Shown here piece after piece: positions 18,838 through 20,703 of a stretch of 64,000 bases of DNA. A program made the translations under genes and the position numbers. Within the stretch, counting starts at the first letter, position 1. Each line of letters opens with the position of its first letter. Below the pieces are notes generated by a model. That model had not been told where the DNA came from. It was given only the letters and a program-made list of their open reading frames with translations, and did not search any database. The DNA comes from an uncultured Clostridia bacterium (GTDB taxonomy: Bacteria > Bacillota > Clostridia > TANB77 > CAG-508). The DNA lies in NCBI GenBank assembly GCA_947629045.1, contig CANRCF010000001.1:72078-136077 (forward strand), written 5' to 3'.

Positions 18838-19678
18838 TTAGACTAAAAGTGTCTTTTTCTTTCCCTGACCACCTATTCCACTTACCCCTCTTTGTCCGTC
18901 TCTAAGTTCTTCTTCCATATCTCTAATTGTTACGAATTTTTCTTCATTTGTTGTAGCTATTTTTTCTGCTACAATAAGTGGGTCCATAAAGTCAATTAAT
19001 ATTCTTGCTGGTGATGATGCAAAATTTGCTCCTGCTAGCATTAGCTTTTCATAATAACTTTGGCAAGCTCCTGCAAAAATTACTAAATCTTTATCTAACT
19101 TTTGCTTTCTTGCTTCAATTACTGCTGAAACAAAATATTTTGAATTTCTATAATTTGATAAATCGTTAAATCTTGCACCTTTTCTAATCATTCCGTCATG
19201 TCCGTGTGATTATTAATATATCTGGCTCATATCTTTGTATTAACCCTTTTATATAATATGGTTGATTCCTTTCAGGTATATTTTTGACAAATGCTGTTAA
19301 ACCTAACTTTTTATAGTATCTACGAGATTTTTCACTATACTTTCTATCACCATCTATATGAAGAATTCTTCCTGTATAAGAGACTAGAGTTTCACGAAAT
19401 GGCTTAGATAAATTTTTTATTTCTTCTTGTTTTTGAATTCTTTTTAATGCTTTTTCTTCTACTTTTCTTATGTGTTCTTCTACAATTTTAGGGCTTACTT
19501 CTTCTAAATCTTCTAGTGGGCTATCTGCCTGAACTCTAACTGTTAAGCCATTTAAAATTGCTATTTGGTCTCCATCTTTTGTTTTTATTATTCTTTGTAT
19601 TACAAATATTATATCTTTTCCGTATGATAATCTTGCTACAATGTCACCTTTCTTAAGTTTTTTCATATCAAAATTCAT
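18838..19678 (-). pseudogene. yabG: Sporulation-specific protease YabG, interrupted by a +1 frameshift
   Basis: Track ORFs 19196..19678 (...YEPDILIITRT stop) and 18838..19191 (MIRKGARFNDLSNYRNSKYF...) are the two halves of YabG. The conserved ...ILIIT-GHDGMIRKG junction is restored by deleting one base at about 19204 (ATCACA[C]GGACATGACGGA). Confidence 0.8.
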
Positions 19679-19817
19679 TCCTTTCTAGATTTGCTTTTTT
19701 TGGGGTAACTCCCCTACATTCCTTTATAGAAAGAATTTTGCATTTTATAAATATGCAGTTATCATATTTTATGTCGTATTTTGTAGTTTGGTGACAGGGT
19801 AAAATTTTTGAAAACTA

Positions 19818-19847
19818 TTGACTTTTTTAAATAAAAAAGAGTATAAT
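19818..19847 (+). promoter_or_regulatory. Sigma-A-type promoter driving the tandem-repeat RNA
   Basis: TTGACT (19818..19823), 18-nt spacer, TATAAT (19842..19847). Confidence 0.5.
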
Positions 19848-19886
19848 GAATATAATAGTAGTGGATATTTAATATCTACTATAATT

Positions 19887-19982
19887 AAAATGTGAACCGC
19901 AACCCTATTTGCGAAATATAAATTTATAGGTGAGAAAATGTGAACCGCAACCCTGCTTGCGAGATATAAATGCGCAGGTGAA
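19887..19982 (+). repeat. Two tandem 48-nt repeats, each able to fold as an H-type pseudoknot (candidate structured RNA)
   Basis: Unit 1 is 19887..19934 and unit 2 is 19935..19982, with 8 differences. Stem 1 is CGCAA/TTGCG. The loop CCTAT pairs with ATAGG in unit 1 and becomes CCTGC pairing with GCAGG in unit 2, which is two compensatory base-pair changes. A perfect 12-bp helix (19877..19888 / 19989..20000) encloses both units. Confidence 0.7.
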
Positions 19983-20054
19983 AAAATGTTAATTATAGTA
20001 AAATGTGGGGTCTAAAAAATTAGATCCCATAGTTTGTTCCGATATCTACTAAAT

Positions 20055-20365
20055 ATGAAAAATATAAAAGAATATATGAAAATAAGAAGTTAAAAAGTGG
20101 GAACAAACCTGTATATAACTTTGTATTTGGTAAGGTATTAGGGAAAAATTCAGTCTTTTTAATACAAAATATATTTCCTACTACTGAAAAATACATAGAG
20201 AAGAAATATACTAATTCAAATATAGATGTTGAGATACCAACAACTGAAAGAGATAATGTTATCGTTACATCTCTTAGAGTAGTTGAGCTTGCACAAAGAG
20301 GAATTAATGTTCCTTTTTATAATATAATTGAAATGAAAAAAATTTTGTTAAATGATAATAAATAA
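20055..20365 (+). pseudogene. Hypothetical ~100-aa ORF lacking an in-frame start (frameshift right after the ATG?)
   Basis: 111 codons are open from 20033 to the TAA at 20363..20365, with no ATG, GTG or TTG until near the end. ATG at 20055 is one frame off. Extending the A5 run at 20058..20062 to A6 would give MKKYKRIYENKKLKSGNKPVYNFVFGKVLGK... Confidence 0.35.
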
Positions 20366-20436
20366 AAGTTTATCATAATACAAACTCTCCTTGAATACAA
20401 TGTAACAAAACAGCGTAATTCAAGGGGGTTTTTCAT

Positions 20437-20703
20437 TTGAAAAGAAATGTATCAATAGAAGAACGTGCTGTTAATTTAGCACAATATATTATAGATAGCA
20501 AAGATACTGTTAGAGGAGCTGCCAAGAAGTTTGGTGTTAGTAAAAGTACTGTTCACAAAGATGTAAGTGAAAGATTACTTAAGATAAATCCCATTTTAGC
20601 TCATGAGGTTAGGCAAATATTAGATGAAAACAAAGCTGAAAGACACATAAGAGGAGGCCTTGCTACAAAAATGAAGTATAGCCATCATGAGGAGGCTATA
20701 TAA
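20437..20703 (+). CDS. spoIIID: Stage III sporulation protein D (mother-cell transcription regulator)
   Basis: ...IEERAVNLAQYIIDSKDTVRGAAKKFGVSKSTVHKDVSERL...AERHIRGGLATKMKY. TTG start with GGGGG upstream. Confidence 0.9.
   Translation: MKRNVSIEERAVNLAQYIIDSKDTVRGAAKKFGVSKSTVHKDVSERLLKINPILAHEVRQILDENKAERHIRGGLATKMKYSHHEEAI

What the first reader, a model, noticed from the sequence alone, without database searches (positions are those of the whole stretch)
19818..20030. Promoter-driven tandem 48-nt repeats with compensatory mutations supporting an SD-sequestering pseudoknot: unassigned structured RNA
Downstream of TTGACT-18-TATAAT lie two 48-nt units (19887..19934 and 19935..19982). Each can form stem 1, CGCAA/TTGCG (19898..19902 with 19909..19913; 19946..19950 with 19957..19961). 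The 6-nt loop pairs downstream as stem 2: CCTAT/ATAGG in unit 1 (19904..19908 with 19926..19930) and CCTGC/GCAGG in unit 2 (19952..19956 with 19974..19978). Four of the eight differences between units are two compensatory base-pair swaps in stem 2. The 3' strand of stem 2 overlaps AGGTGA, which is followed 4-5 nt later by ATG-TGA (a start-stop mini-ORF). After unit 2, AGGTGA is followed by a 9-codon ORF (MLIIVKCGV). A perfect 12-bp helix (19877..19888 with 19989..20000) can enclose both units. An alternative 5' hairpin (about 19857..19884) competes for its 5' arm. A hairpin GGGTCTAA/TTAGATCCC follows. Tandem pseudoknotted repeats downstream of a promoter and upstream of a small gene recall type III (ToxI-like) RNA antitoxins. 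They also recall tandem translational riboswitches. I cannot match it to any family I know.
Basis: partly seen in the sequence, partly recalled or inferred. Interest (0 to 1): 0.75.

Follow-up and report, generated by a model that had tools for sequence, protein, structure and literature searches.

The report
CptI antitoxin RNA, truncated toxin
The two 48-base repeats are the RNA antitoxin (CptI) of a known type III toxin-antitoxin system, CptIN, and in this genome the neighbouring toxin gene has lost its first ~50 codons, so the structured RNA is real but belongs to a known kind.

Summary
A near-consensus promoter (19818-19847) precedes 2.1 tandem copies of a 48-nt unit (19887-19989).

It matches the C-terminal 105 of 150 positions of the NCBIfam model for the CptIN type III toxin (E 8.6e-24) and the CptN crystal structure 4RMO. 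Close relatives (92-95% identical) are 160 aa.

An intact copy of the locus (L001) shows that the window lost about 176 nt: the 3' flank of the terminator, the ribosome-binding site, the ATG and roughly 48 codons.

In 80 related loci from uncultured gut Clostridia, a 46-49-nt x 2.0-2.3 array lies upstream of cptN in nearly all. Across 81 distinct units, both stems are strongly supported by covariation: 94% of cells paired, 9 of 11 pairs with double changes, 0 of 500 shuffles as good.

The fold matches published E. rectale CptI: 1-nt L1 and an A-rich L2 containing AUAUAAAU.

The Shine-Dalgarno-sequestering and riboswitch reading is not supported. The ToxI-like suggestion is right. This is a new, decayed member of a known family; interest is low to moderate.

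The parts
19818..19847 (+). Sigma-70-type promoter: TTGACT (-35), 18-nt spacer, TATAAT (-10). The transcript should start near 19854-19856.
   Evidence: 11 of 12 matches. TTGAC/TTGAT ... TATAAT sits at the same place in 65 distinct related loci. The start site is inferred, not measured.
19858..19882 (+). 5' leader hairpin of 11 pairs with loop UUA, at the extreme 5' end of the predicted transcript.
   Evidence: It is in the minimum-free-energy fold. 91.8% of cells are paired in 67 loci, with little variation. Divergent clades have a hairpin of different sequence at the same place (L060, L064, L069, L079, L082, L085). A role as a 5' stabiliser is inference.
19877..19888 (+). 5' arm of the 12-bp A/U-rich helix that can enclose both units. 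It overlaps the 3' half of the 5' hairpin.
   Evidence: Perfect complement of 19989-20000. 87.9% of cells are paired in 67 loci. Single-sequence double changes are scattered over 8 of the 12 pairs; by eye most are in L057, which reads CTATTAC/GTAATAG. Not in the minimum-free-energy fold.
19887..19934 (+). CptI unit 1, an H-type pseudoknot. S1 is 19898-19902 with 19909-19913. L1 is C19903. S2 is 19904-19908 with 19926-19930. L2 is 19914-19925 and contains AUAUAAAU.
   Evidence: The sequence is identical to unit 1 of 13 related loci. The layout matches published CptI(Er) (PMC4627078).
19935..19982 (+). CptI unit 2, an H-type pseudoknot. S1 is 19946-19950 with 19957-19961. L1 is C19951. S2 is 19952-19956 with 19974-19978. 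L2 is 19962-19973.
   Evidence: Its S2 differs from unit 1 by two compensated pairs. The same unit 1 / unit 2 pair of S2 helices occurs in 44 of 67 distinct loci.
19983..19989 (+). Partial third repeat (AAAAUGU). By inference it supplies the 3' processing site of unit 2.
   Evidence: TRF copy number is 2.0-2.3 in nearly all loci. Rao et al. needed flanking GA / AAG for CptN to process a single repeat.
19989..20000 (+). 3' arm of the 12-bp enclosing helix.
20004..20031 (+). Terminator hairpin between antitoxin and toxin. Its 3' end carries the deletion junction, near 20029-20032.
   Evidence: Alignment to the intact locus L001 and to other loci shows the usual ...GATCCCATATTTTCATAAAGGAG... replaced by GATCCCATAGTTTGTTCC.
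20033..20365 (+). cptN remnant: an open frame of 110 codons plus stop, corresponding to residues ~51-160 of the 160-aa toxin. It has no ATG/GTG/TTG, no ribosome-binding site, and an in-frame TAG at 20030-20032.
   Evidence: NCBIfam NF047359 CptIN toxin, E 8.6e-24, profile positions 46-150 of 150, 84.1 bits against a cut-off of 90. PDB 4rmo_A, E 1.5e-7. 92-95% identity to 160-aa proteins. No ORF of at least 20 aa with a canonical start in this frame.

Best explanation
The feature is the antitoxin half of a chromosomal cptIN type III toxin-antitoxin cassette.

How intact copies work:
- A constitutive-looking promoter makes a short RNA: a 5' hairpin, two 48-nt CptI units, a partial third unit and a terminator hairpin.
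- Read-through of the terminator gives cptN mRNA, which has its own ribosome-binding site.
- Each unit folds into an H-type pseudoknot: S1 of 5 bp, L1 of 1 nt, S2 of 5 bp, and an A-rich L2 lying in the S1 groove.

Inferred by analogy with the E. rectale CptIN crystal structure:
- The CptN endoribonuclease cuts the precursor in the single-stranded A-rich linker. My prediction is ...GGUGAGA^AAAUGU..., five nucleotides after S2, leaving a 3' A.
- CptN then stays bound to the 48-nt products in a 2:2 ring that blocks its active site.

In this window, a deletion of about 176 nt removed the terminator's 3' flank, the ribosome-binding site, the start codon and about 48 codons of cptN. No toxin can be made from this locus. 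The promoter and both CptI units are untouched and are probably still transcribed, as an unprocessed RNA of about 180 nt. I read the locus as a recently decayed TA module that leaves an orphan antitoxin.

Shown here: homology, architecture, RNA fold covariation and the deletion.
Inferred: transcription, the cleavage site, complex formation and the present-day lack of function.
For: Toxin identity:
- NCBIfam CptIN hit for the downstream frame.
- Intact relatives score 155 bits against a cut-off of 90.
- PDB 4RMO CptN matches at E 1.5e-7 for the fragment and 1.6e-20 for a profile of relatives.

Deletion:
- Alignment with the intact, near-identical locus L001 shows a 176-column gap spanning terminator flank, ribosome-binding site, ATG and codons 1 to ~48.

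Linkage of repeats and toxin:
- Nearly all of the 80 genome loci carrying a cptN homologue have a 46-49-nt x 2.0-2.3 array ending about 70 nt upstream of the gene.
- Promoter, leader, terminator and ribosome-binding site are conserved.

RNA fold, on 81 distinct units:
- 94.4% of cells paired, against 28-48% when partners are slid.
- 9 of 11 pairs carry changes on both sides.
- 0 of 500 shuffles reach the observed value on any measure.
- Examples: S1 as CGCAA/UUGCG, CGCCA/UGGCG or CGGAG/CUCCG; S2 as CCUAU/AUAGG, CCUGC/GCAGG, CCUAC/GUAGG, CCAGU/ACUGG or GUCAC/GUGAa.

Same design as published CptI(Er):
- 45-nt H-type pseudoknot, single-base L1, L2 of AUAUAAAUG, cut after A45, 2:2 complex (PMC4627078).

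Family ranges:
- Repeats 40-48 nt, 1.9-3.4 copies, all chromosomal, with partial toxins already recorded (PMC3401426).

No other cptN or CptI in the 64-kb window.
Against: - No expression or processing data exist for this organism.
- The remaining 110 codons are still an uninterrupted frame in a 28% G+C genome. Their dN/dS against intact genes (0.04-0.10) is as low as between intact genes (0.05-0.15). The remnant is therefore either very recent or still selected.
- Truncations at almost the same codon recur in other lineages (L071, L002-L006, and short proteins P0010 and P0046). This could hint at a functional short form.
- The exact deletion junction was not found in JGI metagenome contigs. 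It is known only from this sequence, so an assembly artefact cannot be formally excluded.
- The window fragment scores 84.1 bits, just under the NCBIfam cut-off of 90, because it is truncated.
Confidence: 0.88

Rival explanations
1. The orphan antitoxin is kept for use in trans. After toxin loss, the CptI array is retained because it neutralises cognate-type CptN toxins made elsewhere, either by a paralogous cptIN locus outside the window or by incoming mobile DNA. This would be an 'anti-addiction' or immunity role. It refines the best explanation rather than contradicting it.
For: - The promoter and both units are intact. Unit 1 is identical to that of 13 loci and unit 2 to that of L028.
- Related genomes often carry further orphan CptI-like arrays with no toxin within 1.4 kb.
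- The cassette sits in different genomic contexts, so it moves.
- Antitoxins are specific for their cognate toxins (PMC4627078).
Against: - The low dN/dS of the toxin remnant indicates a recent deletion. An intact array is therefore expected even without selection.
- No other cptN lies in the window, and the rest of the genome cannot be examined.
- No relatives were found in IMG/VR viral contigs.
Confidence: 0.2
2. The locus is still a working TA pair with a short toxin. The 110-codon C-terminal fragment would be translated from a non-canonical start or by coupling, keep ribonuclease activity, and be held in check by CptI.
For: - The open frame is preserved and dN/dS is low.
- The fragment begins just before the catalytic Ser-Thr-Lys stretch (..PISTK..), which aligns with LSSR of CptN(Er). 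It also keeps the Tyr that aligns with Tyr104.
- Short forms of 107-112 aa recur.
- Blower et al. recorded cptIN loci with partial toxins and left their activity open.
Against: - The frame has no ATG/GTG/TTG, no ribosome-binding site, and in-frame TAG codons at 20021 and 20030.
- The missing 50 residues are nearly invariant in the family. They align to the N-terminal part of the CptN fold.
- The other truncated alleles arose by different lesions (a deletion, a frameshift). That looks like repeated inactivation rather than a designed isoform.
Confidence: 0.07
3. One reading: tandem translational riboswitches, or a cis-regulatory leader whose pseudoknots sequester Shine-Dalgarno-like AGGUGA sequences and control start-stop mini-ORFs or the downstream gene.
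For: - AGGUGA followed 4-5 nt later by AUG exists in both units.
- H-type pseudoknots with A-rich loops resemble SAM-II and preQ1 riboswitches. Rao et al. note the same A-minor twist as in SAM-II.
Against: - No Rfam family matches, even at E <= 10.
- The AUG-UGA start-stop is lost in many homologous units (AAAUGUUA, CAAAUGUUAC, AAAUAUAA).
- In intact loci a terminator and a separate ribosome-binding site lie between the repeats and the only gene.
- The repeats are always linked to one gene family, cptN, whichever genes are nearby.
- The pseudoknot has no unpaired pocket. L1 is one base and S2 abuts S1.
Confidence: 0.03

Closest known systems
CptIN of Eubacterium rectale (CptI RNA / CptN toxin; PDB 4RMO; Rao et al. 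2015, PMC4627078) and the cptIN family of Blower et al. 2012 (PMC3401426)
   Same: - The toxin is homologous.
- The gene order is the same: promoter, about 2 tandem repeats, terminator hairpin, toxin.
- The repeat length falls in the family range of 40-48 nt.
- The RNA is an H-type pseudoknot with a 1-nt L1, coaxial 5-bp stems and an A-rich L2 sharing AUAUAAAU.
- The location is chromosomal.
   Different: - Units are 48 nt rather than 45, with a longer 5' tail and L2.
- Stem sequences are unrelated to CptI(Er).
- In the profile alignment to CptN(Er), identical residues are a minority; no identity figure was computed.
- The two units of an array carry different S2 helices in 64 of 67 distinct loci.
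- A conserved 5' hairpin and an enclosing helix flank the array.
- In this window the toxin gene lacks its first ~50 codons.
ToxIN of Pectobacterium atrosepticum / Bacillus thuringiensis (type III TA, ToxI 36-nt repeats)
   Same: - The same logic applies: a repetitive RNA antitoxin is processed by its own endoribonuclease toxin and held in a closed RNA-protein ring.
- A terminator sets the RNA:toxin ratio.
   Different: - It is a different toxin family; identity to CptN is below 15% according to Rao et al.
- It has 5.5 x 36-nt repeats.
- Its pseudoknots are triplex-stabilised.
- Its assembly is a 3:3 triangle rather than a 2:2 ring.
- It is often borne on plasmids or phages.
H-type pseudoknot riboswitches (SAM-II, preQ1-I/II) that sequester the Shine-Dalgarno sequence
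   Same: It is a small H-type pseudoknot with an A-rich loop in a helix groove, and a purine-rich 3' strand that looks like a Shine-Dalgarno sequence.
   Different: - No Rfam match.
- No conserved ORF follows each unit.
- It is linked to a toxin gene, not to metabolic genes.
- No ligand pocket is evident.

Membership tests
cptIN type III toxin-antitoxin family (Blower 2012 criteria; Rao 2015 structure) | The adjacent gene encodes a CptN-family endoribonuclease. | tested here: met
   The frame 20033-20365 hits NCBIfam NF047359 at E 8.6e-24, but only over profile positions 46-150 and at 84.1 bits against a cut-off of 90. It also hits PDB 4rmo_A. Relatives that are 92-95% identical and 160 aa long score 155 bits.
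cptIN type III toxin-antitoxin family | A tandem array of short repeats lies upstream of the toxin (40-48 nt, 1.9-3.4 copies). | tested here: met
   48 nt x 2.1 copies at 19887-19989. The same is seen in nearly all of 80 related loci. The ranges come from PMC3401426.
cptIN type III toxin-antitoxin family | A palindromic terminator lies between the repeats and the toxin gene. | tested here: met
   Hairpin at 20004-20031. In the window, the deletion has replaced its 3' flank and U-tract; intact loci show GGGGUCUA..UAGAUCCCAUAUUUU.
cptIN type III toxin-antitoxin family | Each repeat folds as an H-type pseudoknot with a one-base L1 and a long A-rich L2. | tested here: met
   Covariation on 81 distinct units gives 94.4% of cells paired, 9 of 11 pairs with double changes, and 0 of 500 shuffles as good. 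L1 is a single C. L2 contains AUAUAAAU, as in CptI(Er).
cptIN type III toxin-antitoxin family | A complete, translatable toxin gene. | tested here: not met
   About 176 nt are missing, covering the ribosome-binding site, ATG and ~48 codons. The frame has no canonical start. The locus is therefore a degraded member: the antitoxin is intact and the toxin is a pseudogene.
cptIN type III toxin-antitoxin family | The toxin cleaves the repeat RNA into single units, and the RNA neutralises toxicity. | not testable with these tools
   This needs kill/rescue and cleavage assays. The cleavage site A^AAAUGU is predicted only by analogy with GA^AAG of CptI(Er).
Any Rfam family (riboswitches, ToxI and others) | A covariance-model match. 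| tested here: not met
   No match at gathering score in the whole window. No match at E <= 10 in 19680-20440.
Translational (Shine-Dalgarno-sequestering) riboswitch | A conserved ORF start immediately downstream of the sequestered Shine-Dalgarno sequence. | tested here: not met
   The AUG-UGA start-stop is not conserved among homologous units. The real gene has its own ribosome-binding site after a terminator.

The most novel reading that the evidence does not exclude
This CptI clade may have a precursor architecture not described for type III antitoxins. It has three parts:
- a 5'-terminal hairpin;
- a helix that clamps the two-unit array;
- two deliberately non-identical pseudoknots. S2 differs between unit 1 and unit 2 in 64 of 67 distinct loci, and each is internally compensated. 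This could prevent the 3' strand of unit 1 from mispairing with the 5' strand of unit 2.

In addition, orphan arrays such as the one in this window, left after toxin loss, may persist as trans-acting immunity against incoming cognate CptN toxins.
Probability: 0.2. Interest if true: 0.5.

Novelty: new member of a known kind. Interest (0 to 1): 0.27.

Why it matters
- It shows that a sequence-only reader can detect a genuine structured RNA from within-array compensatory changes.
- It adds a large, well-covarying clade of CptI antitoxins from uncultured gut Clostridia. The set comprises 81 distinct units and about 65 distinct loci. The RNA has no match in Rfam, and the toxin fragment has no match in Pfam-A or PADLOC-DB. 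This alignment could seed an Rfam model.
- The window is an example of TA decay that removes the toxin and spares the RNA antitoxin. That bears on how orphan antitoxins arise.
- None of this changes the understanding of type III systems.

Tried and rejected
- Rfam at gathering score on the whole window, and at E <= 10 on 19680-20440: nothing.
- Pfam and PADLOC on the downstream frame: nothing. Only NCBIfam recognised it.
- Riboswitch or Shine-Dalgarno sequestration: rejected because the mini-ORFs are not conserved and the repeats are always linked to cptN.
- A second toxin after the downstream arrays of relatives: none within 1.4 kb.
- Another cptN or CptI copy in the window: none.
- Conserved synteny (yabG - cptIN - spoIIID): rejected. 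Only about 10 of 86 loci have spoIIID nearby.
- Phage origin: no relatives in IMG/VR.
- A search for the exact deletion junction in JGI metagenome contigs: no hit, so the allele is not independently confirmed.
- dN/dS to detect relaxed selection on the remnant: no difference from intact genes, hence uninformative beyond indicating a recent event.
- Covariation for the 5' hairpin and the enclosing helix: both are conserved, but they vary too little in the MAFFT alignment for a strong test.

Full report
**1. The observation**

The window around the finding is an intergenic stretch of about 760 nt in a 28% G+C genome. It lies between a yabG-like gene on the minus strand, which ends at 19678, and spoIIID on the plus strand, which starts at 20437.

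- The promoter TTGACT-18-TATAAT at 19818-19847 is the best promoter-like site in the region, with 11 of 12 matches.
- Tandem Repeats Finder reports 19887-19989 with period 48, 2.1 copies and score 150.
- The two units differ at 8 positions. Four of these are the two compensated pairs of stem 2.
- The 12-bp complement 19877-19888 with 19989-20000 is perfect.
- An 11-pair 5' hairpin (19858-19882) and a 12-pair hairpin (20004-20031) both appear in the minimum-free-energy fold.
- Rfam gives no match, either at gathering score or at E <= 10.

**2.

Immediately after the hairpin, the frame 20033-20365 is open for 110 codons. It has no ATG, GTG or TTG.

- Pfam and PADLOC do not recognise the frame.
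- NCBIfam NF047359, 'type III toxin-antitoxin system CptIN family toxin', matches at E 8.6e-24. The match covers only profile positions 46-150 of 150.
- The CptN chain of PDB 4RMO matches at E 1.5e-7. A profile of relatives matches the same chain at E 1.6e-20.
- A database search gave 550 homologues. The closest, at 92-95% identity, are 160 aa long, and the window frame corresponds to their residues ~51-160.
- Intact relatives score 155 bits against the NCBIfam cut-off of 90. The window fragment scores 84.1.

**3. The deletion**

Locus L001 is a metagenomic contig carrying the same cassette, also followed by spoIIID. It is collinear with the window and has almost identical repeats.

L001 continues after the terminator as GATCCCACATTTTCATAAAGGAGAAAGGTAATAAGAATG..., followed by a full cptN. 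The window instead reads GATCCCATAGTTTGTTCC. This is a 176-column gap that removes the terminator's 3' flank, the ribosome-binding site, the ATG and about 48 codons. An in-frame TAG sits where Trp50 should be.

Other lineages have inactivated the toxin in different ways:
- L071 carries a different deletion and a TGA at the same Trp codon.
- L002-L006 carry a 1-nt frameshift near codon 53.

The remnant's dN/dS against intact genes is 0.04-0.10. That is indistinguishable from the 0.05-0.15 seen between intact genes, so the loss is recent on that time scale. The exact junction was not found in JGI metagenome contigs.

**4. Linkage of repeats and toxin**

A scan of one genome per species found 80 loci with cptN homologues at 46-95% identity. 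All come from uncultured gut Clostridia, for example Clostridium sp. CAG:245 and CAG:343.

- Nearly all carry a 46-49-nt x 2.0-2.3 array that ends about 70 nt upstream of the gene.
- Across 65 distinct loci the whole layout is conserved: TTGAC/TTGAT ... TATAAT, a 5' hairpin, CTATAATTA, two units, AAAATGT, TAATTATAG, a terminator, AGGAG, then ATG.
- The surrounding genes differ from locus to locus. spoIIID is adjacent in only about 10 of 86 loci. The cassette is therefore a self-contained, mobile unit.
- No relatives occur in IMG/VR viral contigs. This agrees with the literature statement that cptIN loci are chromosomal.

**5. The RNA fold**

I extracted 81 distinct units and aligned them without reference to structure.

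- 94.4% of cells pair. Only 28-48% pair when the partners are slid by 1-3 columns.
- 9 of 11 pairs carry changes on both sides.
- 0 of 500 shuffles reach the observed value on any measure.
- S1 occurs as CGCAA/UUGCG, CGCCA/UGGCG, CGGAG/CUCCG and UGCCG/CGGCG.
- S2 occurs as CCUAU/AUAGG, CCUGC/GCAGG, CCUAC/GUAGG, CCAGU/ACUGG, CCGGU/ACCGG and GUCAC/GUGAa.
- L1 is a single C. L2 carries a nearly invariant AUAAAU.

This is the design Rao et al. solved for E. rectale CptI:
- a 45-nt H-type pseudoknot with coaxial S1 and S2;
- a one-base L1 and an L2 of AUAUAAAUG forming an A-minor twist;
- single-stranded tails that enter the toxin;
- cleavage after A45, leaving a cyclic phosphate;
- a 2 CptN : 2 CptI ring.

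The family ranges of Blower et al. fit the window: repeats of 40-48 nt, 1.9-3.4 copies, and toxins of 45-213 aa that include unexplained partial toxins.

**6. Mechanism**

Shown here:
- homology of the toxin;
- the cassette architecture;
- covariation of both stems;
- loss of the toxin's 5' end.

Inferred:
- Transcription starts near 19855.
- The 5' hairpin stabilises the RNA.
- In intact loci CptN cuts at A^AAAUGU. This places the cut five nucleotides after S2, as in CptI(Er), with a 3' adenosine at all three junctions (UUA^AAAUG, AGA^AAAUG, AAA^AAAUG).
- The partial third repeat supplies the last cut site.
- The 48-nt products hold two toxin monomers in an inactive ring.

In this window no toxin can be made, so the array is an orphan. 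I consider simple recent decay the most likely state. Retention for trans-protection and a functional short toxin are the rivals.

**7.

The Shine-Dalgarno-sequestering or riboswitch idea fails for three reasons.
- The AUG-UGA start-stop is absent from many homologous units.
- AGGUG is the 3' strand of S2.
- The real gene has its own ribosome-binding site beyond a terminator.

The enclosing helix and the 5' hairpin are conserved, at 87.9% and 91.8% of cells paired. They vary too little for a strong covariation test. Divergent clades do have a 5' hairpin of different sequence at the same place.

**8. Verdict**

The RNA is real, structured and correctly drawn, but it belongs to a known kind. It is the CptI antitoxin of a cptIN type III toxin-antitoxin cassette, here with a truncated toxin gene. 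I classify it as a new (degraded) member of a known kind. Interest is low to moderate.

The main added value is the deep covarying alignment, since Rfam has no match for this RNA. The side observations are listed separately: non-identical S2 helices in the two units, orphan arrays downstream of cptN in relatives, and recurrent toxin truncation.

Noticed in passing
window 18838-19678 (- strand), lesion near 19196-19205: yabG, the sporulation peptidase gene, is split into two ORFs of 160 and 117 aa. The cause appears to be a 1-nt insertion inside the conserved ..IITGHDG.. stretch: the sequence reads ATCACACGGACATGACGG. This is either a pseudogene or a sequencing error.
   Followed up: partly
related loci, e.g. 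L001 29-125; alignment A5 (67 distinct loci): The two CptI units of an array carry different S2 helices in 64 of 67 distinct loci, and each helix is internally compensated. The counts are 44 x CCTAT/ATAGG + CCTGC/GCAGG, 10 x GTCAC/GTGAA + CCTAC/GTAGG and 3 x CCAGT/ACTGG + CCGGT/ACCGG. This may reflect selection against mispairing between neighbouring units.
   Followed up: partly
L001 692-789; L030 1991-2140; L045 2022-2165; L058, L063, L073, L080 (just after the cptN stop): Many relatives have a second, orphan CptI-like array immediately downstream of cptN. It is of the subtype found upstream of more distant toxins such as L068. In L030 and L045 it is followed by a unit resembling E. rectale CptI. 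No second toxin lies within 1.4 kb. The window lacks this array.
   Followed up: partly
L071 1440-1530; L002-L006 (e.g. L002 4850-5010); proteins P0010, P0015, P0046, P0075, P0077: The toxin has been inactivated or truncated independently at or near codon 50 in several lineages. The lesions differ: a different deletion with TGA at Trp50, a 1-nt frameshift, and short gene calls of 89-112 aa. The repeats stay intact in each case.
   Followed up: partly
window 19858-19882 and 19877-19888 / 19989-20000: A 5'-terminal hairpin and a mutually exclusive 12-bp helix enclosing both units are conserved across the clade. Neither is described for CptI in the two papers read. Their function is unknown; processing or stability are guesses.
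   Followed up: partly
window 1-64000: No Rfam family reaches its gathering score anywhere in the 64-kb window. Pfam and PADLOC have no model that recognises the CptN fragment; only NCBIfam NF047359 does.
   Followed up: no
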